NCBI GenBank assembly: GCA_964016885.1
Contig: OZ024740.1
Location: 436,976,001-437,040,000, forward strand
Origin: Eledone cirrhosa
Taxonomy: Eukaryota
DNA: 64,000 nucleotides
Reading direction: 5' to 3'
In this document: positions 1 to 52,138 of the stretch, piece by piece
How the letters are laid out: the number at the start of each line of letters is the position of its first letter
How positions within the stretch are numbered: position 1 is the stretch's first letter
Program-made: the position numbers and the translations under genes
Notes under the pieces: generated by a model
What the model saw: the letters and a program-made list of their open reading frames with translations, nothing else
The model's database searches: none
What the model was told of the DNA's origin: nothing

Positions 1-3000
1 AACCAATTCTATCCTAATTATTCTACTAACTGTTAATATAACAAATTCCATCCTTACGACTCTACCAACTGTTAATATAACAAATTCTATCCTAAATTCC
101 ACCAACTGTTAATATAACAAATTCTATCCTAATGAATCTACCAACTGTTAATATTAACAAATTCCATCCTTACGACTCTACCAACTGTTAATATAACAAA
201 TTCTATCCTAATGACTCAACCAGCTGTTAATATAACAAATTCTATCCTTACGACTCTACCGACTGTTAATATAACAAATGTTATCCTTACGACTCTACCA
301 ACTGTTAATATAACAAATTCTATCCTTACGACTCTACCAACTGTTAATATAACCAATTCTATCCTAATGATTCTACCAACTGTTAACATAACCAAATTCT
401 ATCCTTACGACTCTACCAACTGTTAATATAACAAATTCTATCCTTACAACTCTACCAACTGTTAATATAACAAGTTCTATCCTAATGACTCAACCAACTG
501 TTAATATAACAAATTCTATCCTAATTATTCTACCAACTGTTAATATAACCAATTCTATCCTAATTATTCTACCAACTGTTAATATAACAAATTCTATCCT
601 AATGATTCTACCAACTGTTAATATAACCAATTCTATCCTTACAACTCTACCAACTGTTAATATAACAAGTTCTATCCTAATGACTCAACCAACTGTTAAT
701 ATAACAAATTCTATCCTAATTATTCTACCAACTGTTAATATAACCAATTCTATCCTAATTATTCTACCAACTGTTAATATAACCAATTCTATCCTAATGA
801 TTCTACCAACTGTTAATATAACAAATTCTATCCTTACAACTCTACCAACTGTTAATATAACCAATTCTATCCTTACGACTCTACCAACTTTTAATATGAG
901 AAATTCTATTCTTACGACTCTACCAACTGTTAATATAACAAATTCTATCCTTACGACTCTACCGACTGTTAATATAACAAATTCTATCCTTACAACTCTA
1001 CCAACTGTTAATATAACAAGTTCTATCCTAATGAATCTACCAACTGTTAATATAACAAATTCTATCCTTACGACTCTACCAACTTTTAATATGAGAAATT
1101 CTATTCTTACGACTATACCGACAGTTAATATAACAAAGTCTATCCTTATGACTCTACCAACTGTTAATATAACAAATTTTATCCTTAAGACTCTACCCAT
1201 TGTTAATATGACGAATTCTATCCCTACGACTCTACCCATTGTTAATATAATAAATTCTATCCTTACGACACTACCAACTGTTAATATAACAAGTTCTATC
1301 CTAATGACTCTACCAACTGTTAATATAACCAATTCTATCCTAATGATTCTACAAACTGTTAATATAACCAATTCTATCCTAATGAATCTACCAACTGTTA
1401 ATATTACAAATTCTATCCTTATGACTCTACCAACTGTTAATATAACAATTTCTATCTTTGTGACTCTACCAAGTCTTAATATAACCAATTCTATCCTAAT
1501 GAATCTACCAACTGTTAATATAACAAATTCCATCCTTACGACTCTACCAACTGTTAATATAACAAATTCTATCCTAATTATTCTACCGACTGTTAATATA
1601 ACCAATTCTATCCTAATTATTCTACCGACTGTTAATATAACAAATTCAATCCTTACGACTCTACCAACTGTTAATATAACAAATTCTATCGTTACGACTC
1701 TACCAACTGTTAATATAACCAATTCTATACAAATGAATCTACCAACTGTTAATATAACAAATTCTATCCTTACGACTCTACCAACTGTTAATATAACAAA
1801 TTTTATCCTTACGACTCTACCAACTGTTAATATAACCAATTCTATCCTTACGATTCTAGCAAATGTTAACATAACCAATTCTATCCGTACGACTCTACCA
1901 ACTGTTAATATAACAAATTCTCTCCTTACGACTCTACCACCTCTTAATATAACAAATTCCATCCTTACGACTCTACCAACTGTTAATATAACCAATTCTA
2001 TCTTTGTGACTCTACCAACTGTTAATATAACCAATTCTATCCTTACGACTCTACCAACTGTTAATATAACAAATTCTATCTTTGTGACTCTACCAACTGT
2101 TAATATAACCAATTCTATCCTTACGACTCTACCAACTGTTAATATAACAAATTCTATCTTTGTGACTCTACCAACTCTTAATATAACCAATTCTCTCCTT
2201 ACGACTCTACCAACTGTTTATATAACAAATTCTATCCTAATTATTCAACCAACTGTTAATATAACCAATTCTATCCTAATGACTCCACCAACTTTTAATA
2301 TAACAAATTCTATCCTTACGACTCTACCAACTGTTAATATAACAAATTCTATCTTTGTGACTCTACCAACTGTTAATATAACCAATTCTATCCAAATGAA
2401 TCTACCAACTGTTTATATAACCAATTCTATCCAAATGAATCTACCAACTGTTAATATAACCAATTCTATCCTAATTATTCCACCAACTGTTAATATAACC
2501 AATTCTATCCTAATGACTCAACCAACTTTTAATATAACAAATTCTATCCTTACGACTCTACCAACTGTTAATATAACAAATTCTATCTTTGTGACTCTAC
2601 CAACTGTTAATATAACCAATTCTCTCCTTACGACTCTACCAACTCTTAATATAACAAATTCTATCCTAATGACTCAACCAACTTTTAATATAACATATTC
2701 TATCCTTACGACTCTACCAACTGCTAATATAAGAAATCTTATCCTTACGACTCTACCAACTGTAAGTATAACCAAATCTATCCTAATGAAACTACCAACT
2801 GTTAATATAACAAATTCCATCCTTACGACTCTACCAACTGTAAATATAACAAATTCTATCCTAATGACTCTACCAACAGTTAATATAACAAATTCTATCC
2901 TAAATTCTATCAACTGTTAATGTAAGAAATTCTATCCTTACGACTCTACCGACTGTTAATATAACAAAGTCTATCCTTACGACTCTACCAACAGTTAATA

Positions 3001-4115
3001 TAACAAATTCTATCCTAAATTCTATCAACTGTTAATGTAAGAAATTCTATCCTTACGACTCTACCGACTGTTAATATAACAAATTCTATCCTTACGAATC
3101 TACCAACTGTTAATATAACAAATTCTCTCCTTACGACTCTACCAACTGTTAATATAACATATTCTATCCTTACGACTCTACCGACTGTTAATATAACCAA
3201 TTCTATCCTAATGAATCTACCAACTGTTAATATAAGAAATTCTATCCTTACGACTCTACCAACTGTTAATATAACAAATTCCATCCTTACGAATCAACCA
3301 ACTGTTAATATAACAAATTCTATCCTAAATTCTATCAACTGTTAATGTAAGAAATTCTATCCTTACGACTCTACCGACTGTTAATATAACAAATTCTATC
3401 CTTACGAATCAACCAACTGTTAATATAACAAATTCTATCCTAATGACTCTACCAACTTTTAACATAACAAATTCCATCCTTACGACTCTACCAACTGTTA
3501 ATATAACAAATTCTATCCTAATGATTCTTCAAACTGTTAATATAACCAATTCTATCCTAATTATTCTACCAACTCTTAATATAACAAATTCTATCCTTAC
3601 GACTCTACCAACTGTTAGTATAATCAATTCTATCCTAATGATCTACCAACTGTTAATATAACAAATTCCATCCAGACTCTACCAACTCTTAATATAACAA
3701 ATTCCATCCTTACGACTCTACCAACTGTTAGTATAACCAATTCTATCCTAATGATCTACCAACTGTTAATAAACCAATTCTATCCTAATGACTCAACCAA
3801 CTTTTAATATAATAAATTCTAATCTTACAACTCTACCAACTGTTAATATAACAAATTCTATCCTAATGATTCTACCAACTGTTAATATAACCAATTCTAT
3901 CCTAATTATTCTACCAACTGTTAATATAACCAATTCTATCCTAATTATTCTACCAACTGTTAATATAACCAATTCTATCCTAATGATTCTACCAACTGTT
4001 AATATAACCAATTCTATCCTAATCATTCTACCAACTCTTAATATAACAAATTCTATCCTAACGACTCTACCAACTGTTAATATAACATATTCTATCCTTA
4101 TGACTCTATAATCTG
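1..4115. repeat. 39-bp minisatellite array (consensus ACTCTACCAACTGTTAATATAACAAATTCTATCCTTACG), about 105 units, runs off the window start
   Basis: Direct tandem periodicity; produces 13-aa repeat ORFs (TLPTVNITNSILT) on both strands. Confidence 0.97.
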
Positions 4116-4399
4116 TTAATATAACATTAAAAAATTGAAAATATTTTCCTTGAATATCTACATTTCGACATCGGTTGTTTTTCTCTGTCACAATTTCGTG
4201 ATATAAACAGATAAAATCTTCATTTATTTATATCTATCCGAATAATTGACTATCACTTAAAGCATTCAACTAGAGAATATATCATCGGTCATCTATCTCA
4301 ATTATTAAACTTGTCTTGAGCCAACAGACTTATCAAGTTAAAACGTATCTCTATTTTGGGAGGCGTTTAATGACAGAGATACCAGTCCATCATTATGTT

Positions 4400-4560
4400 A
4401 CATCCCTCCAGCTACCAATGGTACTTATTTTTCAACTTAGTAAACTGGAACAATGTGAAACGAAATGTCTTGCTCAAGGACACAAGATATCTGGTTTTGA
4501 AATGGAAACCATGATCTTAAGAACGTGAGATTAAAACCCTAACCCTAGGCCGTGTGCCTC
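4400..4560 (+). mobile_element. Degenerate SINE fragment
   Basis: aaactggaacaatgtgaaacgaaatgtcttgctcaaggacacaa resembles the CORE-like segment of common invertebrate SINEs. Confidence 0.5.
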
Positions 4561-4694
4561 CCAAAACTCAATATTTAAGAAAGCTTAAAATCTTTCAGCT
4601 CTTCTCTATGGAATACTTTCTTCGCGGAATGAATTCTACAACAAATATATTTTTACTTTATTAAGAAAGTACTTATGATAACTGTGTTTAGTTA

Positions 4695-4892
4695 GTGTGT
4701 GTGTGTGTGGTGCGTGTGAGTTTGGTTAGTGTGTGTGGTGTGTGTGTATATGTGTGTGGTGCGTGTGTGTTTGATTAGTGTGTGTGTTGTGTGTGTATAT
4801 GTATGTGTGTGTTTGCATGCATGAATGAAACTATTTCTTTTTCTCTCTCCCTCTCACTCTCTTTCTCTCTCTCCCTCCCTCTTTCACTCTCA

Positions 4893-4923
<31 letters not shown>

Positions 4924-4960
4924 GCTCTCTATCTCTCTCTATCTCTATCTATCTATCTAA
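4695..4960. repeat. Compound (GT)n/(CT)n/(CTAT)n microsatellite
   Basis: Direct reading. Confidence 0.9.
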
Positions 4961-5578
4961 TTGTCTCTCTACATGATGTGTTTATATTGTCAGTATCACA
5001 CTATTTCATGTAGGGATCATAAGTTAACGGAATCTCTGCCTTAAATGTTACAAACAAGTCTGGGGGGAAATTTCCTGATGGCGACAAATTCTGAAAGATA
5101 CTATTTTGATTCTGTTGGTGCGCCAAACCGGCACGGAAGACGAACTGGAGAGGAGCAGGGAATATTTATTGAAGGCAACACGTCTAATAAAATAAAAGAT
5201 CCTTTTTCATGCTTGCCTTACCTTGTAGCTAGTGAGATACAGAATGTAATTTAGTTATAGTCAAGTGACAAAATGGCAGGTGAGATATTCTGATGGCTCA
5301 GTTATTTTTTCACAGTTCTTATTTTTCTTCCTTTATTTTGCTGTAAAAACTTCCCCAGAAAATAACGATATCAAATATAATGAAATTGGAATGCTGTGAA
5401 CAATACAATAAGACACAAGCCTCGCAATTTAATTTTAGACTTGTTTGGTTTAATTTAGCAGTAAATAATTTTAGAAATGTTTTCTTTAAACATATGTCAA
5501 GTTGTGAGATCATTGCAGGATGGAAGGACTTAATCCTTAATATAAGAGTCCTACTTTTATGATGGGAATTATTTGACA

Positions 5579-5650
5579 CACGAGGATAGGCTGAAATGTT
5601 CATAGGCTGACTATGAAGGAATGATGCGCTAGAGCTGTGAAATATTGCAT
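5579..5650 (+). mobile_element. Truncated mariner-type MITE (family A)
   Basis: Matches the left end of the complete copies at 19750, 38156 and 50087 (gctgaaaagttcataggctgactatgaagga). Confidence 0.75.
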
Positions 5651-5679
5651 ATATATATATATATTATATATATATATAT

Positions 5680-9054
<3,375 letters not shown>

Positions 9055-9082
9055 GTGGTTACACAACAGTTAGTTCACCATA

Positions 9083-9122
9083 CCGAGAACAATTGTTTCA
9101 CCTTCGCGGATCTACAGCTCGG
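9083..9122 (-). ncRNA. Minimal hammerhead ribozyme with one core substitution
   Basis: ccgag-CTGTAGA-tccgcgaaggt-GAAA-caattg-TT-ctcgg; the 3' part recurs at 15678-15723. Confidence 0.7.
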
Positions 9123-9404
9123 GATGTGTATGGTTATAGGAACATATATATATATGTAAATGTATGTATATATATGTGTATATGTATCTAAATGTAATCT
9201 GAGTTTTTCGAATATTATTAATAATATTCGATTCGTTTGCAATTATGCAGCCTCTTGTATGTATATATATATATGTGTGTGTGTGTATGTATGTATGTAT
9301 GTTCTGTTATTATTTCTGGCAATATTATTACAACAATATGACCCTCCCCAAGTATACTGGTGTTGCTACTAAATCAAGCTCTCTGTGCACAGGCGGAGTG
9401 TATA

Positions 9405-9625
9405 TAATAGAAGAAACGAGGAAGTTTAGTTTACATATGAAAAATATCTATTGCGTATCGACCTTTTACGCGCGTTTCGCAGAGGATTGGCTCAGCGGAG
9501 ACCCATAGGCGTTATGACCCGACTCCAGTCACCTTGAGCCAATCCTCTGCGAAACGTGCGTAAAAGGTCGATACGCAATAGATATTTTTCATATGTAAAC
9601 TAAACTTCCTTGTTTTTTCTATTAT
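9405..9625. repeat. Fold-back with ~90-bp arms carrying the right half of an HHR-like motif
   Basis: Arms aggaagtttagtttacatatg...ggattggctca and tgagccaatcc...aaacttcct; GAAA-cgcgcg-TA within the arms. Confidence 0.8.
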
Positions 9626-10035
9626 ATACATATATGTATATATATATATATCTTCCCCAAACTCTCACACTCACATACACACATGCGTACACCTACACAC
9701 AAATAACACACACCACCTTCCGCCCTCCCCGCTCGGACCCCCTGTTTTCCTTCTCCTCTCTCCTCCTCCATCCACCCACCAACACCTCTACACACCTCAC
9801 ACCCTTTCACCACTTGTTTTCATTTTAATCTTTTTTTCCCTCCTTTTAATTTTTTCCCCCCTTTTAATGTCTTTCCTACAATTCCCCCTCACACCCTCGG
9901 AACACTTTTCCTTCCCACCTTTCTCCTGGTAAAGGGCTTATGCCCGAAACGTCGTCCCCCACTCTCAAGCATGAACCTAATACCACACTCTTCGTACTGC
10001 ACACCTTATTATTGTTTTTGTTTTTGTTTTTTTTA

Positions 10036-10085
<50 letters not shown>

Positions 10086-10096
10086 ATATATATATA

Positions 10097-10236
10097 AGGA
10101 AGGAAGTGTGGTAAGGAACCAGATGGACCGTAACGCACCAGAGTACTCGATACTATGGGTAGTAGAGTGGGTAATAGGAAAAGAGTCAGGACCCCGACAG
10201 CAGAACTCAAGCCGTTTCGACGGCTATTTCTGGACT
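10097..10236 (-). mobile_element. PLE pLTR 3' fragment (family of the element ending at 57480)
   Basis: Homologous to 14855-14990 and to the reverse complement of 57340-57480. Confidence 0.75.
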
Positions 10237-10485
10237 AAACACAGAGAGAGAGAGAGAGAAAGATTAGGAAGACTACACACACACATCTACAGAGAGAGAC
10301 AGAAAAATAGAGGGAAGGGAAAAGAGAGAGCCGTTAGACAGAGAGAGATACAATTAAAGTGTTAGTTATTCAGAGAGAGATAGAGAGTCGGAAGGAGAAT
10401 GTGACACGGGAGGGTGTGTGGTAACTTTGCAGTGAAGTGGTGGGGGCAGGTATACCTAGCCGTCGCCAGCCGGGCGGGCCAGCTA

Positions 10486-10531
<46 letters not shown>

Positions 10532-10675
10532 TATTTTCCGTTGTGTTGTAATATAAATATTACACACAGTAGATTATCAGCTCACGTAGAGTTTGCTCGA
10601 CGGTTCCAGTGTAGTTCCAAAGTAATCCGGAGAAAAATAGAAAGATTTGAATGGATACAGTTTAGTTGAAAGGAA

Positions 10676-10794
10676 TTTATTGACACGTGTTTCTATAACA
10701 GTTACATAACCTAAAACAGCTATCTACAAACTTTTAGTTATGGCAGACATTCAATATTTCAATGTTATTATTTACTGTCATTTCATCAGAATAA
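10676..10794 (-). ncRNA. Hammerhead ribozyme with ~90-nt stem II
   Basis: Reverse complement of 14669-14785. Confidence 0.7.
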
Positions 10795-11383
10795 TATTAC
10801 TGAGGACCTATTTAGTTTTTATAGAGAATATTAGGAGGAAGGGGTTGAAGTTGTTAGAAGAATAGTTGAAGGAGTGGTTTTTCGATAGCAGTGAGAATTC
10901 TTGGTGGCAGTGAGTAATTAGATTCCCATCTGTTGTTTTGACATTTTTTATAGAATATATTATTGGTTATTTTTCTAAATCTATAGAAGGATTAGAGATA
11001 GTAAAGATATGCGTGGTTGGTTTTGTGTTTGCACTTAACATTCAGACTTAAATTTTTCTTTCAAGTGTACGTATTCTTTCACCCACGCATTCACGACACA
11101 AATATATTTTGCACACCTCTACAAAATACATATACTCACAATTCACATATTCATACTTACATATATATACACATGCATACACATATATATACACACATGT
11201 ATTCATGTACATACCATACGCGCTCATGTGTATACATTTTCATACTCAACTTATCTTTATATATACAACACGTATAGACACACACATATATACATACATA
11301 CTCTAGTCCATGTGTACACACATACACATACATACACATCCATATACACATACATACATACACATATATATATACATACATAC

Positions 11384-11430
<47 letters not shown>

Positions 11431-11447
11431 CATATATACACACATAT

Positions 11448-11484
<37 letters not shown>

Positions 11485-11759
11485 AGCACTTTAATACATG
11501 AATACACTTACATCTAACTATACACATCAAACATATATATATATATTTACTTATTTATATACATTTTCACATATATATACATACTTATGGACGTTTTTAG
11601 ACACATTCATTATCGCATATTTGTACCTATTCTCATCAGCATATCTTTTCATTATTAGTATGGTAATTTAAGGTTATTAATATATGTTGAGAAGAAATTG
11701 TTTTTATATTTTTCTAACTAGATTAAGGTTTATATAGTTGGGGGATGTCCCTCTTTTAT

Positions 11760-13406
11760 GTAATATTCGGCTTGTAGTGGGAAAAAAGGGTTTTAGTTCT
11801 GTGACGGCAGAATAATGTTCGTTCAATTCTGTTATTCAGCAGTTTCTTCTTGTGTGTGATTATGTAATAAATCTCAAGATTACACAATTTGCAGAATTTT
11901 GGCTCCTGGAAAAGCTTTGGGTTTTAGCTAATTTTTCCCATTTTAGGGTAAACTTTTGATTGCTATCCCTGAGCGTCCAAGCTTTCTCTGCTAAAGTTGT
12001 TACATTTCTTTGGCTCTGGTGTTTTATTGAGTAAGAATGCCTATACAATCGAGATTTAAACGATGTTGCCGTTGATCCCACGTAATACCACTCGTTGCCT
12101 CCGGATTTAATGGTACACTTATAAATAATATTTTTTTCCAGGCAGTTATTGCCGAGGGGGCAGTTGTCAGGATAGGTGCAGTTACAGTTGTGTACGTTGG
12201 GTTTTCTCTGGAGTAGTATTGCGGACGAACTTAGGTGTGGTTTATTTATGTTCTGTAGTGTATTGTCTACTGTTTTTTGGGGGTTCTTTGTACTTAAGTT
12301 CTTAGTGTTTTCGTTTAACCTTCTAGTATTGATCTTTTTTATGTGTTGTTCAAGGTTTAACGCTGTAGAGTATGACAGTCTTATAGTGGTAGGGTTTAGG
12401 ATTTTGTGGTATTTGTGTGATGTGGGAAAATGTCTTTTAATTATTTTAAAGAAGAGTACTGGTAAATTTGTACTAATGGAGCTATTGTATTCGGGGTTAT
12501 ACCATAAGTACTCTTTGCATCGCTTTCTATTAGTTTTGTTTGTTGGTTTACTGGTGTGCATACTATGGTAGTAAGTGTGGTTTGGTGTTGTGTTATTATA
12601 TCTACCTATGTGGGATTTATTTTGGGTGTTTTGATTGTTCCCATCTATGTACTCTATTTTGTTGAGGTAGCCTGCTTTACTAAGGGCGTTATCGTAGTAC
12701 TCGGCGTGTTCCTTAAATACTTGTATGTTAGAAGATAGACCCGAGATTCTAAGGGAAATATTTTTAGGGATAGATTTAATTATAGAGATGGGGTGGTTAG
12801 ACCCAACATTTACGTATTTGAGATTTTCATTCAATTTATGAAACGGTTTAATCAAACCAGAGTTTAAATTGAGTGTGACATCCAGGAAGTTAACTACTTT
12901 AAGGTTGTATTCATATGTTATAGTTAGTCCTATTTCGAGTAGTAGTTTTCTTATATCTTTGCGTAGTTTTTCTAGTTTTTGGTTATTAAGGTTTTTAGCT
13001 AGGAGGAGAACATCGTCGCGGTATATTCCGCCGTGGAGATTGCTGAATTTTTCCTGGAGTCTAAAGGCGATAAATAACCCCACAATATCAGTTATTTCCG
13101 CCGAATCGTTAGAGCCCATTGTTATGTCAAAGTTAGAGGGTCTATCTTTACGTACCCAATAACTGTTCTCAAATTTGACTATAGTTTTCCTAGCTTCTAA
13201 TATAATCTTAATTTCATCGTTTGTAAGGTCGGAGTTATCCTTAGCAAACTTAATGGCTCTATTCAAAGTTTCAGGTGATATCGATGCGTAATATTCATCG
13301 ATATCAAACTGGATAAACTTAGATTTATTCTTATTGCTAATGCTATTAAACCATCTTATTGCTTCTTGGGTCTTCCCCCAGAGTTTAATGTTAACCTTAG
13401 CCTTAA
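11760..13406 (-). pseudogene. PLE reverse transcriptase plus GIY-YIG endonuclease, N-terminally truncated
   Basis: FIQFDIDEYYASI (upstream of the annotated ORF, same frame), FDITMGSNDSAE, IYRDD, FLDV, CNC-x5-CPL, NIIY..YYVGST, CKLC..LLN..CRH; 1-nt frameshift near 11895 relative to the right arm. Confidence 0.92.
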
Positions 13407-13983
13407 TTTAAATCTCGATTGTATAGGCATTCTTACTCAATAAAACACCAGAGCCAAAGAAATGTAACAACTTTAGCAGAGAAAGCTTGGACGCTCAGGG
13501 ATAGCAATCAAAAGTTTACCCTAAAATGGGAAAAATTAGCTAAAACCCAAAGCTTTTCCAGGAGCCAAAATTTCTGCAAATTGTGTAATCTTGAGATTTA
13601 TTACATAATCACACACAAGAAGAAACTGCTGAATAACAGAATTGAACGAACATTATTCTGCCGTCACAGAACTAAAACCCTTTTTTCCCACTACAAGCCG
13701 AATATTACATAAAAGAGGGACATCCCCCAACTATATAAACCTTAATCTAGTTAGAAAAATATAAAAACAATTTCTTCTCAACATATATTAATAACCTTAA
13801 ATTACCATACTAATAATGAAAAGATATGCTGATGAGAATAGGTACAAATATGCGATAATGAATGTGTCTAAAAACGTCCATAAGTATGTATATATATGTG
13901 AAAATGTATATAAATAAGTAAATATATATATATATGTTTGATGTGTATAGTTAGATGTAAGTGTATTCATGTATTAAAGTGCT

Positions 13984-14020
<37 letters not shown>

Positions 14021-14037
14021 ATATGTGTGTATATATG

Positions 14038-14084
<47 letters not shown>

Positions 14085-14668
14085 GTATGTATGTATATAT
14101 ATATGTGTATGTATGTATGTGTATATGGATGTGTATGTATGTGTATGTGTGTACACATGGACTAGAGTATGTATGTATATATGTGTGTGTCTATACGTGT
14201 GTATATATAAAGATAAGTTGAGTATGAAAATGTATACACATGAGCGCGTATGTATGTACATGAATACATGTGTGTATATATATGTGTATGCATGTGTATA
14301 TATATGTAAGTATGAATATGTGAATTGTGAGTATATGTATTTTGTAGAGGTGTGCAAATATATTTGTGTGTGAATGCGTGGGTGAAAGAATACGTACACT
14401 TGAAAGAAAAATTTAAGTCTGAATGTTAAGTGCAAACACAAAACCAACCACGCATATCTTTACTATCTCTAATCCTTCTATAGATTTAGAAAAATAACCA
14501 ATAATATATTCTATAAAAAATGTCAAAACAACAGATGGGAATCTAATTACTCACTGCCACCAAGAATTCTCACTGCTATCGAAAAACCACTCCTTCAACT
14601 ATTCTTCTAACAACTTCACCCCTTCCTCCTAATATTCTCTATAAAAACTAAATAGGTCCTCAGTAATA

Positions 14669-14785
14669 TTATTCTGATGAAATGACAGTAAATAATAACA
14701 TTGAAATATTGAATGTCTGCATAACTAAAAGTTTGTAGATAGCTGTTTTAGGTTATGTAACTGTTATAGAAACACGTGTCAATAA
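14669..14785 (+). ncRNA. Hammerhead ribozyme with ~90-nt stem II
   Basis: ttatt-CTGATGA-a-atgacagt...actgttat-a-GAAA-cacgtg-TC-aataa. Confidence 0.72.
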
Positions 14786-14819
14786 ATTCCTTTCAACTAA
14801 ACTGTATCCATTCAAATCT

Positions 14820-14854
<35 letters not shown>

Positions 14855-15851: not shown

Positions 15852-16900
15852 CATACATACATACATACGAATCACATTTATTGAGAATATTTAAATGCTA
15901 CACCAAATTAAATTAAAGTAAATATTCTACCTTAATTTCATTATTGAAGACATGAGTTTCTTTCCAACTGGAACGGAAGAAACCATTGAAATCTTATGAA
16001 CTAAATATTTCAAGGGTTTCTTGTGTTTTACTTTTATTTCCATTTTGTTTTTTGTATATTTTAATATATTATTTGTACAAAAATTAATCAGATCGTAAGT
16101 AATTACTAACGCAATATTATTATTTTAATAACGAACAACGTTTGTTATTCGGTAACTCATTAACTAGTTTTTCTTTTCTTTTATGTTTTCCTACCTCAAT
16201 TATTTGTAAGAAATGTACCAAACGCACTGTGAAGTTCACTTGAAACTCTACTTCACTTGTTTTCCTAATATGCAAATATGTATTTCATATGTTGCTTTGA
16301 CTATTAGCAATTAGAAAGGTCCTCCGTCGGTTTCAACGATGAATCCTGTTCTAGTTGTTCGATTAATGGAATGGCTTGCTCGTGAAATCAGTGTGTATGT
16401 AGCTGAGAATTCTACAGACACGTGTACCCTTAACGTAATTCTCAGGGGGATTCAGGATGGCAAGGCTGGTCCTTTGAAATACGAGTATAATCCATCCGGC
16501 GGGTTTCCAAACAGTTTCCGGGGTTGACCGGAAACTACAGACAACGATATTTACCGGTTGACACGCTGTCGTATCAAACTCGAGATCCAGTAATTGTGAA
16601 ACGAACTCCTTAACTATTCGGCCAAGCTTCAGTCACTGTTAGTAACTAAATATTTTATATACTCACTAAAGTCACAAGTTGTGAACGATAGCACCGTTGG
16701 TTCATTAAAATATATATATAATGATGAAATATATAATTTTATATATATATCTATATATATATATATATATATATTAGGGTAAATATTGATGCAATTCAAT
16801 TCAAGCACTCAACGTTCTTTTTCCACATAGGAGTGACGGAGTAAATATCGAATAAGGAAAAGCGAAGTAGTTTCAGATGTTCAAGTCCTTTAATAATAAT

Positions 16901-16974
16901 GCTGTGATATATATTTCAGTGACGACACTGGCCACACTGTTCTGTGTGCGTGTGTCGTGTCATCATCAGACAGC
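16901..16974 (-). ncRNA. Type I hammerhead ribozyme
   Basis: gctgt-CTGATGA-tgacacgacac...gtgtcgtcact-GAAA-tatata-TC-acagc. Confidence 0.9.
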
Positions 16975-17816
16975 TTGTTACATAATAAGGTTATGTTTCC
17001 GAGACAATCCAAATTGGATCGACAAGGGAACGGATGAATTGCGTGTTCTTGGGTTTTTCATCCGCTCCCTTGTGAGTACCAATTCACCCCCACCGGCCTG
17101 CGCAAGCGCATGTCCGAAGGAAGTTGACCATTTTCCACCGCAGACTTCAACGAAATTTGCTTTGTCAGTTCACCCTGTCATCCAAAACAATGGCCCACCA
17201 ATGCCTGTACCATATTTTACTGCTACCCATCACGGCTGTGGCAGTCAGCCGAGAGCCAAAGGGGATGGGAGAGTGTTAGTTTACCCCTCACTAAGCGTTG
17301 ACGGTACTACTGACCATCACCTTATTAGGGAAAATAAACTTATTCTAGGTATCATGGTTTTACGTTGGAAGTTAAGAGTGAGAGTTGGAAATAAAAATTA
17401 AAATCCTAAATCAAATATCAGAAATTATAAAATAAACAATTAAGAAATTAACAATTAGAAATTGTACCAGATTCACTAATGCCTGGAGCCCTGTAGTTAT
17501 AATGTACGACACTGTCGTTCAATATGTGGATAGAGTAACTGACACTAGAATCCCTCTCAGAACATATTACTTAAACACCTCTCTCCATATTATTTACTCA
17601 CTTCAGTCTATATTTTTACTCACCTCAATCCGAATTATCACCTGAAAAGAATGTGGAGAATGGTCAACTTCCTTCGGACATGCGCTTGCGCAGGCTGGTG
17701 GGGGTGAATTGGTACTCACAAGGGAACGGATGAAAAACCCAAAGGCACGAACTTCATCCGTTCCCTTGTCGATCCAATTTGGATTGCCTCGGAAACATAA
17801 CCTTATTATGTAACAA

Positions 17817-17890
17817 GCTGTTTGATGATGGCACGACACTCGCACACAGAACAGTGTGGCCAGTGTCGTCACTGAAATATATATCACAGC
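17817..17890 (+). ncRNA. Hammerhead copy with C3-to-U core mutation
   Basis: gctgt-TTGATGA...GAAA-tatata-TC-acagc. Confidence 0.8.
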
Positions 17891-19088
17891 ATTATTATTA
17901 AAGGACTTGAACATCTGAAACTACTTCGCTTTTCCTTATTCGATATTTACTCCGTCACTCCTATGTGGAAAAAGTACGTTGAGTGCTTGAATTGAATTGC
18001 ATCAATATTTACCCTAATAATTTAGCTCCAATAGTTGAGCGCTTTACGATGTAACCGATATGGTGGAGAAGAGAGGAACCAACCATAAGCTACCCCGGAA
18101 ATTCCCTCTACCATGGGGATGAAACCCCTTACACTGGACGGACATAATAGTAACTTTCGGCAGGATAAATACGCGGAAACAAATAATAGGATAAACCCCT
18201 ATTTTCCTGCACCAAATCGCACTTGAACAGAGACCCCCTCAATTCAATCTATACATGGACAGATGGACAATCATATGGATCATATATGTACTCTGTGTTT
18301 TTGCATTTATTCACTGTTAGTTCTGTTCTTTTCTTTTGTGTACTTTATGTCTGTTTTTCTTTGATTTTGTTCCATATGACGGAAATTAGGACTGTGTACC
18401 AGATTCACTAATGCCTGGAGCCCTGTAGTTATAATGTACGACACTGTCGTTCAATATGTGGATAGAGTAACTGTGACACTAGAATCCCTCTCAGAACATA
18501 TTACTTAAACACCTCTCTCCATATTATTTACTCACTTCAGTCTATATTTTTACTCACCTCAATCCGAATTATCACCTGAAAAGATTTTTTTAATTCTTTT
18601 TTTAATTCTTTAATTTCTAATTGTTAATTTCTTAATTGTTTAATTTATAATTTCTGATATTTGATTTAGGATTTTAATTTTTATTTCCAACTCTCACTCT
18701 TAACTTCCAACGTAAAACCATGATACCTAGAATAAGTTTATTTTCCCTTATAAGGTGATGGTCAGTCGTACCGTCAACGCTTAGTGAGGGGTAGTATTAT
18801 GACTCCCATCCCCTCTGGCTCTCGGCTGACTGCCACAGCCGTGATGGGTAGCAGTAAAATATGGTACAGGCATTGGTGGGCCATTGTTTTGGATGACAGG
18901 GTAAAATGACTAAGCAAATTTCGTTGAAGTCTGCGGTGGAGAATGGTCAACTTCCTTCGGACATGCGCTTACGCAGGCTGGTGGGGGTGAATTGGTACTC
19001 ACAAGGGAGCGGATGAAAAACCCAAGAACACGCAATTCATCCGTTCCCTTTTGGATTGCCTCGGAAACATAACCTTATTATGTAACAA

Positions 19089-19162
19089 GCTGTCTGATGA
19101 TGACACGACACTCGCACACAGAACAGTGTGGCCAGTGTCGTCACTGAAACATATATCACAGC
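19089..19162 (+). ncRNA. Type I hammerhead ribozyme
   Basis: gctgt-CTGATGA...GAAA-catata-TC-acagc. Confidence 0.88.
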
Positions 19163-19210
19163 ATTATTATTAAAGGACTTGAACATCTGAAACTACTTCG
19201 CTTTTCCTTA

Positions 19211-19300
<90 letters not shown>

Positions 19301-25981: not shown

Positions 25982-28900
25982 ACCTGTAGATAGGTAACAG
26001 GTTTATACTGTAGATAGGTACCAGGTTTATACTGTAGATAGGTACCAGGTTTATACTGTAGATAGGTAAAAGGTTTATACTGTAGATATGTTTCTTTTAT
26101 TTGCCACCAGGGCATCAAAAGTGGGACAAGTACAATGGGGGGAGTTTACAAAACAAGGCGTCCTCAATAAGGAGGAGGCAATAACAATATATAAAAATAA
26201 AATAAAATATGACAAAAAATAAAATTTATAACAAAGTCCTCAATAGAGAGGAGGCGCCTTGGGGGGTCGCACACACCCCCGAAAAAAGTGTGCAACCCTT
26301 CTCCTCAGGAGCACAGAGAAGGGGTGCTCCCTTGGTCTTTCATCTTCCTCACCTATAGTCTGATGTTGAGTGAAGGCCCATTCACACGGGCCATACTCGC
26401 CACTTTCACCCATCTTTCATAGAAACGGCTGGGGTGCAGCACCTCTCTCTCCATCCTGATCCTTCGTCCGAAATGATATCGGAAGAAACGGACCAGTTGT
26501 TGGCCAGAGAGAAAGGTGTCTGACCTCAGTCTTTTCAGACGCGTCCACCATACAACCTCTTTCGCCATGGCTATTACGCACAGAAACACCGCCTCTCCTT
26601 CGTTTTTGAAGAGGGGAGGCGGCTTGATCGTTACAATAGACTCGGTGGTCAACCGGATCGGTCCCACCCTTGACAGCAGTTGTTCGACATAGCCCCACAG
26701 ATCGGCAATGCCCGAGCAGTGTACCAATGCGTGTGCAACGGTTTCCTCGTCGCACGCGCATCTGGGACAGATATTTTTCGATGGGTCCCTACCCGGGCGC
26801 CCGTGTCTATAGAGCCTTTCTCGAACAGGCAGAGCCCTTCTGTAGCATTGCCAGGCCAGGGACCTCTGGAAGTTATCCATGGGTCCCGGGCTGAATGTCC
26901 TACCGAACAGGTTGGCCAGTTCGTCTTCCTCCATGCCTAGGGCTTCTCCGAGGGCGTCGTCACACCTGCTAACCACCAGCCCTCTATAGAATGACGAGGT
27001 GGATTCTCCACTGACAGCCGGGTCCGCCTGCCAGAGAGCCGTGAGCGCCTGGGCACACTCGGTGTGCCAGGCGCCCAGTTTTCTCGGTCTTTGCTTGACC
27101 CAGGATTGCAGCTCGGTGAGTGAGACGAGTCTGGGAAAGGCTCGCCTCACAAACGGGGCCCACACCGGTTGACCGGAGAGGAATACCTGGAGGTGCCGTA
27201 GCCTTAATGCGTGTTTACGTATCATTAGCCACGGCATCCCCAGCCCTCCTTTCGAAGGCTGTTGACAGCAGATGGATCTCCTCACCATAGGAGCCCGCTT
27301 CTTCCAAAGGAATTGGAAGAGTGCGCGCTCCATTTTGGCGAGCGTTTCCCTTGGGCAAGGCACAACGGTCAAGCGGTAGTAAATGACGGACGCTATATAA
27401 GTGTTCGCCACCTCCGCCCGACCTTTCAGGGACAGTTTGCACTCGGCCCACTTCTCGGTCAGTGCAAACACCCTGTTCATCACCTCGCCCCAGTTCTTCT
27501 CAACCTGGAGGTCTGGTCCGAACCAGACCCCGAGCAACTTCACCGGGCCCTCCGTCCAGCGCCCGACGACGCCATCGGAGGGCATCGATCTGCCCCTCCA
27601 CGTGCCGAGTTGCAGACCGATCGACTTGTCCCGGTTCAGCTTAGCCCCTGTAAACCTTTCGTACTCCTCCAGTAAGGTGCGGATCGCCCCGATTACCGAG
27701 GCCGTCGACACCATTACTGTTACGTCATCGGCGTAGGCTGACACCGCTTTCCGCAATCCCGGTTCCAACGGGATGCCCTGCAACAACTCCAACTTCCGCC
27801 GCAGTGGCTCTAGAGTCATTACATACAGAAGGGAGGAGAGAGGGCACACCAGGTTTATACTGTAGATAGGTAACAGTCTTATATTGTAGATTTGTACCAG
27901 CTTTATACTGTAGACAGGTACCAGCTTTATACTGTGGATAGGTACCAGGTTTATACTGTAGATAGGTAACAGGTTTATAGTGTAGATAGGTACCAGGTTT
28001 ATATTGTAGATAGGTACCAGGTTTATACTGTAGATAGGTACCAGGTTTATACTGTAGATATGTACCAGGTTTATAGTGTAGATAGGTAACAGGTTTATAC
28101 TGTAGATAGGTACCAGGTTTATACTGTAGATAGATACCAGGTTTATACTGTAGATAAGTACCAGGTTGATACTGTAGACAGGTAGCAGGGTTTTACTGTA
28201 GATAGGTACCAGGTTTATACTGTAGACAGGTACCAGGTTTATATTGTAGATGGGTAACAGGTTTATACTGTAGATAGGTAACAGGTTTATACTGTAGATA
28301 GGTACCAGGTTTCTACTGTAGATAAGTACCAGGTTTATACTGTAGATAGGTACCAGGTTTATACTGTATATAGGTACCAGGTTTATACTGTAGATAGGTA
28401 CCAGGTTTATACTGTAGATAGGTAGCAGGTTTATACTGTAGATTGGTAACAGGTTTATACTGTAGATAGGTACCAGGTTTATACTGTAGATAGGTACCAG
28501 GTTTATACTGTAGACAGGTACCAGGTATATACTGTAGATAGGTACCAGGTTTATACTGTAGATAGGTACCAGGTTTATATTGTAGACAGGTACCAGGTTT
28601 ATACTGTAGATAGGTAACAGGTTTATACTGTAGATAGGTACATGGTTTATACTGTAGATAGGTAACAGGTTTATACTGTAGATAGGTACCAGGTTTATAC
28701 TGTAGATTGGTAACAGGTTTATACTGTAGATAGGTAACAGGTTTATACTGTAGATAGGTACCAGTTAGATACTGTAGTTAGATACCAGGTTTATACTGTA
28801 GATAGGTACCAGGTGTATACTGTAGATAGGTAACAGCTTTATACTGTAGATAGGTTCCAGGTTTATACTCTAGATAGATAACAGGTTTATACTGTAGATA

Positions 28901-29406
28901 GGTACCAGGTTTATTTTGTAGATAGGTACCAGGTTTCTACTGTAGATAGGTACCAGGTTTATACTGTAGATAGGTAACAGGTTTATACTGTAGATAAGTA
29001 CCAGGTTTATACTGTAGATAGGTACCAGTTAGATAATGTAGTTAGATACCAGGTTTATACTGTAGATAGGTACCAGGTGTATACTGTAGATAGGTAACAG
29101 CTTTATACTGTAGATAGGTTCCAGGTTTATACTCTAGATAGATAACAGATTTATACTGTAGATAGGAACCAGGTTTATACTGTAGATAGTTACCAGGTTT
29201 ATACTGTAGATAGGTACCAGGTTTATACTGTAGATAGGTAACAGGTTTATACTGTAGATAGGTACCAGGTTTATACTGTAGATAGGTACCAGGTTTATAC
29301 TGTAGATAGGTACCAGGTTTATACTGTAGATAGGTACCAGGTTTATACTGTAGATAGGTAACAGGTTTATACTGTAGATAGGTAAAAGGTTTATACTGTA
29401 GATATG
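25982..29406. repeat. 24-bp minisatellite (GGTACCAGGTTTATACTGTAGATA), left part, interrupted by a Tx1 fragment
   Basis: Direct periodicity. Confidence 0.96.
26091..27849 (-). mobile_element. 5'-truncated Tx1-type LINE (RT C-terminal half, Cys-rich domain, 3' UTR)
   Basis: CPLS, YADD, zf-RVT-like CPRC..ETVAHALVHC; clearly homologous to but diverged from 29407-31161. Confidence 0.93.
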
Positions 29407-29667
29407 TTTCTTTTATTTGCCACTAGGGCATCAAAAGTGGGACAAGTACAAAGGGGGGAGTTTACACAAAAAGGCGTCCTCAATAAGGAGGAGGCAATAA
29501 AAAAATATAAAAATAAAATAAGATATAACAAAAAATAAAATTTATAACAAAATCCTCAATAGAGAGGAGGCGCCTTGGGGGGTCGCACACCCCCCGAAAA
29601 AAGTGTGCAACCCTTCTCCTCAGGAGCACAGAGAAGGGGTGCTCCCTTGGTCTTTCATCTTCCTCAC

Positions 29668-32600
29668 CTATAGTCTGATGTTGAGTGAAGGCCCATTCAC
29701 ACGGGCCATTCTCGCCACTTTCACCCATCTTTCATAGAAACGGCTGGGGTGCAGCACCTCTCTCTCCATCCTGATCCTTCTTCCGAAATGATATCGGAAG
29801 AAACGGACCAGTTGTTGGCCAGAGAGAAAGGTGCCTGACCTCAGTCCTTTCAGACGCGTCCACCATACAACCTCTTTCGCCATGGCTATTACGCACAGAA
29901 ACACCGCCTCTGCTTCATCTTTGAAGGGGGGAGGCGGCTTGATCATTACAATAGACTAGGTGGTCAACCGGTTCGGTCCCACCCTTGACAGCAGTTGTTC
30001 GACATAGCCCCACAGATCGGCTACGCCCGAGCAGTGTACCAATGCGTGTGCAACGGTTTCCTCGTCGCACACGCATCTGGGACAGATCTTTTTGGCGGGC
30101 TCCCTACCCGGGCGCCCGTGTCTGTAGAGCCTTTCTCGAACGGGTAAAGCCCCTCGGTAGAACTGCCAGGCCAGGGACTTCTGGAAGTTGTCCATAGGTC
30201 CCGGGCTGAATGTCCTACCGAACAGGCTGGCCAGTTCGTCCTCCTCCATGTCTAGGGCTTCTCCGAGGGCGTCGTCGCACCTGCTGCGTACCAGCCCTCT
30301 ATAGAATGTTGCGGTGGAGTCTCCACTGATAACCGGATCCGCCTGCCAGAGGGCGGTGAGCGCCTGGGCACACTCAGTGTGCCAGGCGCCCAGTTTTCTC
30401 GGTCTTTGCTTGACCCAGGATTGCAGCTCGGTGAGTGAGACGAGTCTGGGAAAGGTTCGTCTCACAAACGAGGCCCACACCGGTTGTCCGGTGAGTAATA
30501 CGTAAAGGTGCCGTAGCCTTAATGCGTGTTTACGCATCATTAGCCACGGCATCCCCAGCCCTCCTTTCGAAGGCTGTTGACAGCAGATGGATCTCCTCAC
30601 CATAGGAGCCCGCTTCTTCCAAAGGAATTGGAAGAGCGCGCGCTCCATCTTGGTGAGGGTTTCCCTTGGGCAGGGCACTACGGTCAGGCGGTAGTAGATG
30701 ACGGACGCTATGTAGGTGTTCGCTACCTCCTCCCGACCTTTCAGGGATAGTTTGCAACTGGCCCACTTCTCGGTCAGTGCAAACACCCTGTTCGTAACCT
30801 CCGCCCAGTTTTTCTCCACCTGGAGGTCCGGTCCGAACCAGACCCCGAGCAACTTCACCGGGCCCTCCGTCCAGCGTCCGACGACGCCATCGGAGGGCAT
30901 CGGTCTGCCCCTCCACGTGTCGAGTTGCAAACCGATCGACTTGTCCCGGTTCAGCTTAGCCCCTGTGAACTTTTCGTACTCCTCCAGTAAGGTGCCGACC
31001 GCCTCGATTTCGGAGGCCGTCGACACCATTACTGTCACGTCATCGGCGTAGGCCGACACCGCTTTCCGCAATCCCGGTTCCAAAGGGATGCCCTGCAACA
31101 ACTCCAACTTCCGCAGTAGTGGCTCGAGAGTCAACACATACAGAAGGGAGGAGAGAGGGCACCCTTGTCGGATGGACCGCGCGATTTTGAACGGCTCCGA
31201 GAGGTAGCCGTTCACCTTGACCCTAGAGCAGATGCGGCTGCTGTGCATAGCAGTGATCCAGCCCCTGAAAACGGGTCCGAAGCCTGCCGCCGCTAGCACC
31301 GCATTCAGGTAACCATGGTCGACCCTATCGAACGCCTTAGATTGATCCAAGTTGATCAGAGCCCCACCAAAGCCGGGTTCGTTCCCAACCCTCTCTATGA
31401 TGTATCGCATGAGGTGGAGGTTGTCATGGATGGACCTGGATGGGATAGCGCATGTCTGCGCATCTCCCACCAGGTTGCCCACGACAAGCGCCAACCTCTT
31501 TGCTAGCACCTTGGCCAAAATCTGTAACTCTGTATTTAGCAGAGTTATGGGCCTGAAGTTACTTATTCGTCCCCCTTGTTCTCGTCCTTCCTCACTAGCG
31601 TGACTACGCCCTTGGTCACAGTACAGGGAATTCTCCCGTTCTGTTGCCAGTTGCAGTAGACCGCCTCGAGGAGATCGGGGAACAAGTCCGACATAGCTAG
31701 ATATAATTCGTAAGGAAGACCATCGAGACCCGGGGATTTGCGTTTGCCGCATTGGCTCAGCACGTCCTCTATCTCAGCGGCCGAAATCGGCTCCTCGCAG
31801 GACTTCGCCTCCCTGTCCGAGAGGCGCGGCAGGCCGTCGAGGTATGGACCGAAGTCCACGTTCCCAACCGGCTCCCCGCCCCTCCCGAACAGTCGGGCAA
31901 AGTGCCTTTGAAAGGCCTCACACATCTGCTTAGGCTCAAGAATCGCCCGTCCATCCAGGTCTCGCAAAGACCGGATGGTGGATTTAGTTCCACTGTTGGC
32001 CTCTGTCACGCGGGCCCAGCTAACAGCTTTGGTCCCCTCGTTCCCTAGAGCACGTATTTTACTTCGGACAACGCAGCCTTCGTGCTTCGCGTCGAAAAAC
32101 TGGCTCAAAGCCGTTCTCGACGCTAGCACTCTGGCCACGTCGCCGCTTCTAATTGCCTCTTCTACTCTATCTATTAGCTCCCTTTCCTTCCTATTCCTAT
32201 CCGCAGCTAGAACCTTACTAAATTCTATCGAGACTACTCTAATCTCTCTCTTTAGAGATACCCACCACCTGCTGTTGACGATCGCTCCAGTCAACCGTTC
32301 CTTAACTAACGTTCTAATCCGATTCCTGTAGGCTCTACTTGCCGGCAAGGACAAGTTGAGCTTCCAGTAACCGGGGCCCTGTCTATGAGTTCTGTCAAGG
32401 TTGACCATGCAGGTCACTCATTTGTGGTCTGAATAGCCAACCATGCGCATTTTTGGACAACTTAAAAAGTCCTTATCCTTAATTCTAACTAAGAATCTAT
32501 CTAGGTACGACCTAGATGATCCGCTACGATTTGCCCAAGTCCAGGTTGGCGCAGTCGGAAAATCTAGTCGATATCTATCGGCCAGGTCAAATCGACCGAT

Positions 32601-33104
32601 TAACCCTTTGAGGATATTACACCCCTCTCTATCGGGGCAGGCCCCTACGTAGTCCCAGCGTGCATCTAGGATACCATTCCAGTCCCCCACTAATAGCAAG
32701 GAGCGGGACGTCCCTAGAAAAGTCTCCAGACGATGGAAGAAGTCCGGCCGCATTGACCCGAAAGGGCCGTAGGCGGCTACCAACCTAAACGCTCCGCCTT
32801 TACCACTGCCAAGGTCCAGAACCACTAGTCGACCCTCCGGGTCCAAATGTACCATCTGTGTTGCGAGACCCAGATGTTTTTGCAGCAGAACGACAACTCC
32901 ACCCCCACCTTCGGGCTGACAGAGAGATGCGTGCATCTCAAAGTCATCAAAGGTGGGGGCCAGCTGTCGCACGTTGCTGATTCGGGCCTCGCAAATAACC
33001 ATCACATCTATACGTTGTGACCTGAGGTCATTTAGAAGCATTGCTTGCTTCCAAGTTGAGCCCAGGCCACGCGCATTTAAACACCCTACTCTTAGCATAG
33101 CCAT
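29668..33104 (-). pseudogene. Tx1 ORF2 (APE endonuclease plus RT), disrupted by one stop and at least two frameshifts
   Basis: LNARG, GDWN, YLDRF, SDH; PGLDGLP, FRPITLLN, LDQSKAFDRV, RQGCPLS, YADD; TGA at 32418. Confidence 0.93.
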
Positions 33105-33128
33105 GTTGGTGGTGAAGAGAAAAGGCAC

Positions 33129-34933: not shown

Positions 34934-35110
34934 TTTTTATCAAAATAGGATTTTTCGAAATATTAAATGTTTACAACACTATTTCGCCTAAAGGCGTAGA
35001 ATATTTTGAGAGACTGACCAGATCAAAATTTGACCTGGCAGTCCCTCTACAAAATGGTACAAAAATGAAAGTTTACAGTTCACAATTTCCAGTTAAATTT
35101 AAACGAAACT

Positions 35111-46200: not shown

Positions 46201-46338
<138 letters not shown>

Positions 46339-46404
46339 CGTAAAATAAGAAAATCCTTTAAAAAAGTTTTTCAAAAATTTTTTAACTTACTTACTTAAAT
46401 TTTC

Positions 46405-47909: not shown

Positions 47910-47983
<74 letters not shown>

Positions 47984-52075: not shown

Positions 52076-52138
<63 letters not shown>

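What the first reader, a model, noticed from the sequence alone, without database searches (positions are those of the whole stretch)
16773..19212. Large (~1272-nt) non-coding unit bracketed by two direct HHRs, with inverted arm and internal template jump
Seen: HHR cleavage positions at 17885 and 19157 on the plus strand, with no RT or EN coding between them. An inverted copy occupies 16773-17463. The upstream partial unit jumps from cctgaaaaga (~17650) to gtggagaatgg, skipping about 350 nt present at 18584-18935. The upstream HHR has a C3U mutation. Inference: an unusually long retrozyme or non-autonomous PLE, integrated with several RT template switches.
Basis: partly seen in the sequence, partly recalled or inferred. 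Interest (0 to 1): 0.75.

Follow-up and report, generated by a model that had tools for sequence, protein, structure and literature searches.

The report
Oversized ribozyme parasite of Penelope transposons
This is one copy of a repeated, roughly 1.3-kilobase non-coding element with a predicted self-cutting RNA motif, longer than the animal examples in the papers read here, and its layout indicates it was likely pasted in by a Penelope-type jumping-gene enzyme that probably switched between RNA templates.

Summary
Hammerhead motifs lie at 17885 and 19157 (+), with a third at 16906 (-). The inverted arm, the 351-nt skip and C3U are all present.

Corrections: the downstream ribozyme is damaged too (U15.2C), so only the inverted one is unmutated. 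This copy carries deletions, so the family unit is about 1.3 kb.

The interior is neither a decayed PLE ORF (profile score below 0 bits; controls 8-113) nor single-copy host DNA. It is highly repeated in one coded organism and present in a second.

The layout is that of a Penelope-like insertion: partial tandem, inverted 5'-truncated arm, one long and one short 3' end, microsatellite target. Both end sites recur at other family copies.

Allele patterns suggest the upstream repeat came from a different unit than the rest, which argues against copying round one RNA circle at this locus.

Best reading: a long non-autonomous, PLE-mobilised element, like a retrozyme but above the reported animal range (170-400 nt; at most 972 bp in a survey capped at 1 kb). 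Cleavage, expression, circles, the helper element and the local junctions are untested. New variant of a known kind.

The parts
16740..16774 (.). (TA)n microsatellite, left flank and likely target
16773..17463 (-). Inverted, 5'-truncated arm (I): from the U-rich tract through the hammerhead to the long 3' end, about 134 nt after the cleavage site
16772..16849 (-). 78-nt 3' extension ('tail') present at this end and absent at the right end
   Evidence: both end sites recur beside (TA)n in other copies
16901..16974 (-). Type I hammerhead motif, C17 at 16906; the only one of the three with both an intact core and a palindromic stem III
17463..17650 (+). Segment B, second copy of 18395-18584, joined head-to-head to the inverted arm with 1-nt overlap
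17651..17652 (+). 2-nt filler at the jump that skips 351 nt; ends of the skipped part are not GT-AG
17653..18019 (+). Upstream partial repeat (D1, pseudo-LTR); its 3' end at 18019 is the family's natural long end
   Evidence: summed contig depth falls from about 102,000 to 3,700 at 18020
17817..17890 (+). Hammerhead motif, C17 at 17885, with C3U at 17822
18020..19213 (+). Main unit (D2): non-coding, multi-copy body plus hammerhead and short 3' end, 56 nt after the cleavage site
18585..18690 (+). U-rich tract; the landing point of the jump (18584) and the 5' end of the inverted arm (18612) both map to its start
18917..18993 (+). Short block with raised depth and unrelated flanks in raw reads; possible promoter or shared module (inference)
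   Evidence: tables 2, 6, 7
19089..19162 (+). Hammerhead motif, C17 at 19157, with U15.2C at 19150 (T in nearly all other copies)
19214..19300 (.). (TC)n(TA)n(TG)n microsatellite, right flank; no target-site duplication discernible

Best explanation
This is one insertion of a multi-copy, non-coding family of about 1.3 kb that carries a type I hammerhead motif near its 3' end and is likely mobilised in trans by a Penelope-like element's endonuclease and reverse transcriptase. Shown: anatomy, multi-copy status, no detectable RT or EN coding, two recurrent 3' end sites beside (TA)n, and allele differences between the pieces. Inferred steps: (1) a PLE protein cut both strands of a microsatellite and primed cDNA from both ends; (2) the left cDNA started at the long site and stopped after about 690 nt at the U-rich tract; (3) the right cDNA started at the short site, copied the whole unit, crossed the tandem junction into the upstream pseudo-LTR of a linear partial-tandem transcript, gained 2 nt and switched to the interior of another copy of the same unit for 190 nt; (4) the two 5' ends were joined head-to-head. 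Ribozyme cleavage, probably as a dimer through the palindromic stem III, is predicted for intact family members. This locus probably cannot release a unit-length RNA efficiently.
For: Layout matches published PLE insertions: partial tandem, inverted 5'-truncated copy, tail at one end, microsatellite bias (PMC8557442); two direct plus one inverted pLTR around unrelated cargo moved in trans (PMC3846280); both strands cut and extended from two internal start sites (PMC11167929). Two coding PLE remnants in this window have similar inverted arms (10637-14825, 50727-52134). Family data: 2472 contigs of X1 laid, 30 of 30 bins covered, depth highest around the 3' end; organism B holds interior and ribozyme (12 contigs, 25 of 30 bins); loose (AT)n ends at 17946 (18 contigs), 18017 and 19212; 5 of 13 listed joints are strand inversions; one diverged contig spans 17977-18121; 29 of 29 bins covered in X2 and one contig spans 18563-18653. 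Non-coding: a 44-protein PLE profile scores the unit at -0.8 bits, four control remnants at 8-113. Mixed templates: at 19026, 19028 and 19035 D1 has the family-majority base while I and D2 share the minority base; B equals D2 at 188 of 188 aligned positions while the other four comparisons differ by 2.2-3.6% (P about 0.001-0.005).
Against: No autonomous partner with this 3' end was found; only this 64-kb window could be searched. The link between the 5' and 3' halves across the U-rich tract rests on one listed contig with 22 letters left of 18585 and on depth continuity; raw RAD reads give almost no depth there. The tail is 78 nt, against 30-40 nt in the papers read. Stem II lacks the canonical G10.1-C11.1 pair, the predicted active fold lies 2.3-3.7 kcal/mol above the minimum, and Rfam gives no hit. 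Family-majority alleles come from organism A, which may not be this genome's species. Later gene conversion or a later duplication of B could give the same allele pattern. One of 44 tblastn queries gave a short hydrophobic match at E 3.6e-4.
Confidence: 0.7

Rival explanations
1. A true giant retrozyme: a unit-length RNA cut at two hammerheads circularises, and reverse transcription round that circle gave the more-than-unit direct arm.
For: The direct arm is longer than one unit and runs through the ribozyme. The motif resembles canonical retrozyme hammerheads, including the U.U base of helix II of axolotl HHR_Amex2 (PMC7229834). A>G changes exceed T>C on the ribozyme strand (16:6 in X1, 29:14 in X9), which fits an edited RNA intermediate but not specifically a circle.
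Against: One circle would make D1 and D2 identical at insertion, yet D1 has the family-majority base at three sites within 10 nt where D2 and I do not. No multimer array is present here. The unit is not rod-like: only 3 of 21 windows reach z of -2.4 or lower.
Confidence: 0.12
2. A composite: a shorter hammerhead family (about 0.6-0.7 kb, U-rich tract to tail) with 18020-18584 as a separate repeat or captured DNA that is only loosely associated with it.
For: Depth is modular, with peaks at 18508-18555, 18620-18730 and 18921-19010. Run X4 covers 18651-19213 at 48-422 but 18021-18650 at 0-26. PLEs capture 0.9-1.5 kb of host DNA between pLTRs (PMC3846280).
Against: Both junctions are crossed by diverged contigs from other loci (17977-18121; 18563-18653). 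Both halves occur at similar low depth in organism B. No joint from 18019 to the U-rich tract is among the 13 listed. 5' truncation explains much of the gradient.
Confidence: 0.1
3. The element is real, but segment B and the jump are a later DNA rearrangement or an assembly error, not an RT switch.
For: B is identical to its partner apart from a 2-nt indel while other pieces differ. The jump joint is absent from the 4 runs laid. Such loci are hard to assemble (PMC8557442).
Against: X1 lacks this locus's private alleles (18233, 18376, 18380: all depth carries another letter), so absence of the joint says little. The filler bases and the allele matches to real family variants are not what a collapsed assembly gives.
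Confidence: 0.06
4. The interior is a decayed or internally deleted ORF of an autonomous PLE.
For: In Poseidon-type PLEs the ORF starts at hammerhead stem II (PMC11167929), and an ATG sits there here.
Against: That frame stops after about 16 codons. Each frame has 22-30 stops in about 424 codons and the longest open run is 73 aa. The profile score is below 0 bits while equally long control remnants score 8-113.
Confidence: 0.02

Closest known systems
Metazoan non-LTR retrozymes (Cervera and de la Pena 2020, PMC7229834; Li, Clavereau and Pollet 2026, 10.64898/2026.07.22.740005)
   Same: Non-coding, low GC (39%), multi-copy, type I hammerhead with short palindromic helix III, proposed dependence on PLEs; U.U at the base of helix II as in HHR_Amex2.
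   Different: Unit about 1.3 kb against 170-400 nt, or 51-972 bp in a survey whose tandem search stopped at a 1000-bp period. One full unit plus partial arms, not an array. Stem II segment of 45 nt with an internal loop. Circular RNA not shown.
Penelope-like element insertions and pLTR-flanked cargo (Arkhipova et al. 2013, PMC3846280; Craig et al. 2021, PMC8557442; Frangieh et al. 2024, PMC11167929)
   Same: Two direct plus one inverted pLTR, tail at one end only, two RT start sites, AT-rich target, non-coding or unrelated sequence carried in trans.
   Different: The cargo here is a shared, amplified family found in at least two coded organisms, not a one-off capture. The tail is 78 nt, not 30-40. 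No ORF.
MRC1 and other non-autonomous Chlamys PLEs of Chlamydomonas (PMC8557442 section 10; PMC9940879 passages)
   Same: Non-autonomous PLE derivatives with pLTRs and head-to-tail insertions.
   Different: Algal. Most Chlamys lack canonical hammerheads. Their 3' similarity to an autonomous partner is known; here no partner was found.
Plant LTR retrozymes (PMC4918200 and PMC5680766, search listing only; features as summarised in the 2026 preprint)
   Same: Comparable size class (600-1000 nt) and a non-coding unit between two hammerheads.
   Different: Type III hammerhead in true LTRs, PBS/PPT and 4-bp TSD, Gypsy-dependent. This one is type I with PLE-style ends.

Membership tests
Type I hammerhead ribozyme | Core CUGANGA, GAAA, NUH in type I order with helix I | tested here: met
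   Met at 16906 and 19157; C3U at 17885; 5-bp helix I; 5 of 5000 null regions
Type I hammerhead ribozyme | Short palindromic helix III allowing dimer cleavage | tested here: met
   Self-complementary 8-mer in I and D1; broken in D2 by 19150; T in 131338 of 131343 summed depth in X1
Type I hammerhead ribozyme | G10.1-C11.1 pair closing helix II | tested here: not met
   U.U, then G-C, A.A, C.C, then 8 bp. Precedent HHR_Amex2. C.C at the fourth position also in the two other same-stem-III motifs of the window. No Rfam hit
Type I hammerhead ribozyme | Self-cleavage | not testable with these tools
   Needs in vitro transcription
Metazoan non-LTR retrozyme | Non-coding, GC below 45%, multi-copy | tested here: met
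Metazoan non-LTR retrozyme | Short monomer (170-400 nt; up to 972 bp in the 2026 survey) | tested here: not met
   1272 nt here, about 1.3 kb in the family (papers)
Metazoan non-LTR retrozyme | [quoted passage not shown] | tested here: inconclusive
   One full unit between two direct motifs, each with a damaging change; other loci not available
Metazoan non-LTR retrozyme | Accumulates as circular RNA | not testable with these tools
   Needs RNA data or a northern blot
Non-autonomous Penelope-like element | Partial tandem forming a pLTR plus an inverted 5'-truncated copy | tested here: met
Non-autonomous Penelope-like element | Optional 3' tail at one end, from two start sites | tested here: met
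   Ends at +56 and +134; other copies end at +55, +61 and +132 beside (TA)n; 78 nt instead of 30-40
Non-autonomous Penelope-like element | AT-rich or microsatellite target | tested here: met
Non-autonomous Penelope-like element | 3' end similar to an autonomous PLE | tested here: inconclusive
   No blastn or tblastx match in the rest of the window; only a shared 7-mer found after the fact; genome not held
Autonomous PLE (intact or decayed) | RT and GIY-YIG coding similarity | tested here: not met
   with positive controls
Plant LTR retrozyme | Type III hammerhead in LTRs with 4-bp TSD | tested here: not met
   Type I order; no TSD discernible in the microsatellite flanks; PBS/PPT not tested

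The most novel reading that the evidence does not exclude
Intact members of this family make a 1.3-kb self-cleaved, circular non-coding RNA, larger than any animal retrozyme in the papers read. It is the first of a kilobase-size class that tandem-repeat surveys capped at 1 kb cannot see, with promoter-like and ribozyme modules shared with the shorter ribozyme repeats of the same genome.
Probability: 0.2. Interest if true: 0.65.

Novelty: new variant of a known kind. Interest (0 to 1): 0.42.

Why it matters
It extends hammerhead-bearing PLE parasites in animals past 1 kb and bridges short retrozyme arrays and pLTR-flanked cargo. The most recent survey read here could not have found such units by design. 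Its three arms carry distinguishable alleles, so the family gives a genomic test of a long-open question: whether more-than-unit PLE insertions come from a circular RNA or from linear partial-tandem transcripts and template switching. This locus favours the second. The architecture itself is known, so the surprise for a specialist is moderate.

Tried and rejected
No whole genome is held, so copy number, other full-length loci and the helper PLE could not be obtained.

Rfam gave nothing at gathering level and only microsatellite-driven or sub-threshold noise at E up to 10. No tRNA or tmRNA. The bacterial promoter scan is not applicable.

Run search: no RNA holder listed. X7 gave 0 contigs on 18380-18830, which proves nothing; X6 gave one 103-nt match and low-complexity hits. 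X4 has no library on record, so its pattern is not used as expression evidence.

A 23-nt ribozyme motif found 0 matches in metagenome and viral contigs.

A 176-aa antisense frame at 16871-17401 is longer than 995 of 1000 null regions but was rejected. It has no Pfam or Atlas hit, it is broken in D2, and the family-majority letters at 18938-18941 put a stop in it near codon 88 (worked out by hand).

Pfam alone was too weak a test, since it missed the clear PLE ORF 11863-13407. A profile was therefore built.

The skip is not a spliced intron. The rise in depth at 19050 is partly clipping at this copy's 11-nt deletion, so it is not taken as a family boundary.

One search read four control ORFs on the wrong strand or with the stop included and was redone; one search read the 5731 motif on the wrong strand and was redone.

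Earlier-finding look-ups by place (near) and by sequence returned nothing.

Full report
Observation. The sequence claims hold. I name the pieces I (inverted arm, 16773-17463), B (17463-17650), D1 (17653-18019) and D2 (18020-19213). I is the reverse complement of 18612-19213 continued into 17942-18019. B repeats 18395-18584 with 0 substitutions in 188 positions and one 2-nt indel. Two filler bases join B to D1, skipping 351 nt whose ends are not GT-AG. I and B meet head-to-head at 17463 with a 1-nt overlap. Both outer ends are 3' ends and run into microsatellites.

The ribozyme. Three type I hammerhead motifs have C17 at 16906 (-), 17885 and 19157 (+). A motif of this strictness arose in 5 of 5000 null regions. 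D2 has U15.2C at 19150, which destroys the self-complementary helix III; nearly all other copies have T there. Only the inverted motif keeps both features. Helix II is atypical: U.U, G-C, A.A, C.C, then 8 base pairs. A U.U base is known from axolotl HHR_Amex2, which cleaves weakly alone and better as a dimer (PMC7229834). The C.C at the fourth position recurs in the two other window motifs with the same helix III (44024 and 5731), which supports this register. Rfam does not score it, the open-core fold is 2.3-3.7 kcal/mol above the minimum, and activity is untested. With both direct motifs damaged, this locus is unlikely to release a 1272-nt RNA efficiently (inference; C3G abolishes cleavage in the anole PLE).

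Not a decayed ORF. The six frames of 17886-19157 carry 22-30 stops each and the longest open run is 73 aa. Pfam gave one irrelevant hit at E 0.058 but also missed a clear PLE ORF in the window. I therefore built a profile from 44 relatives of that ORF. It scores the unit at -0.8 bits at best, and four equally long control remnants at 8, 21, 66 and 113 bits. One of the 44 proteins gave a 23-residue hydrophobic tblastn match at E 3.6e-4, which I regard as compositional.

A family, not a local accident. No genome is held, so I laid public runs. In organism A (X1) 2472 contigs fit 17886-19213 and all 30 bins are covered. Summed depth is 2,800-12,700 over 18021-18605, 1,900-35,500 over 18606-19055 and 77,000-157,000 around the ribozyme and tail, while single listed contigs have depth 5-12. 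The tool warns that these sums are not copy numbers, but the interior is plainly highly repeated. Depth drops from 102,000 to 3,700 at 18020, so 18019 is the natural long 3' end and 18020 the start of the next unit. A diverged contig spans that junction (17977-18121). Organism B holds both halves (12 contigs, 25 of 30 bins). Across the U-rich tract X2 covers 29 of 29 bins and one contig runs 18563-18653; this link is the weakest, since raw RAD reads give almost no depth there. Other copies carry 11, 18, 7 and 1 nt that this copy lacks, so the family unit is about 1.3 kb.

PLE footprints. The ends lie 56 and 134 nt after the cleavage site. Other copies end at +61 (18 contigs, X1), +55 and +132 (X4), each followed by (TA)n, and 5 of 13 listed joints are strand inversions. 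Partial tandem, inverted 5'-truncated copy, one-ended tail and (TA)n bias are described for PLEs (PMC8557442). The tail reflects two internal RT start sites, and the anole enzyme cuts and extends both strands (PMC11167929). [quoted passage not shown] Two coding PLE remnants and a 555-nt non-coding ribozyme repeat in this window have similar two-armed layouts. No partner sharing this 3' end was found in the window.

Templates. All three arms share minority alleles at 18938, 18940, 18977 and 19144, so they come from one sub-lineage. At 19026, 19028 and 19035 D1 has the majority base (0.85, 0.89, 0.71 of X1 depth) while I and D2 share the minority base. One site conflicts: at 18979 D1 and D2 share the rare base. 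B is identical to D2, whereas the other four comparisons differ by 2.2-3.6% (P about 0.001-0.005 for 0 of 188). One RNA circle would give D1 equal to D2. The simplest reading is a linear transcript from a partial-tandem donor, copied to its upstream end, followed by a switch with two added bases onto another copy of the unit at the U-rich tract. Gene conversion or a later duplication of B would give similar patterns, and the majority alleles come from organism A, which may be a sister species. X1 lacks this locus's private alleles (18233, 18376, 18380), so its lack of the jump joint neither confirms nor refutes the assembly. A>G exceeds T>C on the ribozyme strand (16:6, p 0.011, in X1; 29:14, p 0.004, in X9) while G>A and C>T are balanced. 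This fits RNA editing fixed by reverse transcription, but the runs share sites and the direction is not polarised.

Comparison and novelty. It works like a metazoan retrozyme or a non-autonomous PLE. It fails the retrozyme size criterion (170-400 nt; 51-972 bp in a survey with a 1000-bp tandem ceiling), so I file it as a long non-autonomous PLE-type element. Six literature searches returned no report of an amplified, hammerhead-bearing, non-coding animal family above 1 kb. Repbase, Dfam and most subscription journals were not searchable, and I read no supplements; those of PMC8557442 and the 2026 preprint may list longer families. Papers seen: 10.64898/2026.07.22.740005, parts 1-3 of 5; PMC11167929, parts 1-2 of 4; PMC7229834, 4 passages and part 3 of 6; PMC8557442, 12 passages and section 10; PMC3846280 and PMC4209133, 12 passages each; PMC6431247, 11 passages; PMC9940879 and PMC7722844, 3 passages each; the rest as search listings. 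Earlier notes from this scan describe 310-591-nt two-armed ribozyme repeats in this genome and call it a cephalopod. I did not test the organism, and those notes are leads, not support.

Verdict. Real and multi-copy, with a known architecture at an unusual size. New variant of a known kind; interest 0.42.

Noticed in passing
window 46329-47920: Second two-armed non-coding ribozyme repeat: hammerheads at 46410 and 46965 (-) and 47717 (+), 555-nt period, arms 97-99% alike, flanked by (TA)n.
   Followed up: partly
window 10637-14825, 50727-52134, 7545-8997, 44816-45886, 55082-56013: PLE remnants with RT and/or GIY-YIG similarity. The first two have inverted arms. The Cys-rich linkers look Neptune-like (recalled, not tested).
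   Followed up: partly
window 17899, 44033, 47767, 52024: The 7-mer TAAAGGA lies within 100 nt after the cleavage site in 4 of 6 distinct hammerhead families of the window, including one coding PLE; background is 1.4% per 100 nt. Found after the fact; possibly a shared recognition signal.
   Followed up: partly
window 44024 (+) and 5731 (-): Solo hammerheads with the same palindromic helix III and a C.C mismatch at helix II position 4, each ending about 50 nt downstream in (TA)n.
   Followed up: partly
window 18917-18993: Raw reads align to this block with unrelated flanks on both sides (125-200 reads per end). It contains a GCGC-rich near-palindrome resembling an NRF1 site (motif recalled, not tested).
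   Followed up: no
window 19097-19103 and 19144-19147: In these copies the ribozyme core also reads as a perfect box C and box D pair (motifs recalled). The family-majority letter at 19144 breaks box D, so this is probably coincidence.
   Followed up: no
window 19100: 189 raw reads of X9 and one contig of organism B continue after the first core half with a different helix II: a sister family shares the sequence upstream of the ribozyme.
   Followed up: no
window 18651-19213 versus 18021-18650: Run X4 (library not on record, 88 million letters) covers the 3' half deeply, with a 382-nt contig that keeps several of this copy's minority alleles, and the 5' half hardly at all. Unexplained.
   Followed up: no
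window 1-4126, 25984-37721, 58659-62342: A 39-nt tandem array; a 24-nt tandem array interleaved with non-LTR retrotransposon ORFs; and an intact 1227-aa EN-RT ORF on the minus strand. Family labels not tested.
   Followed up: no
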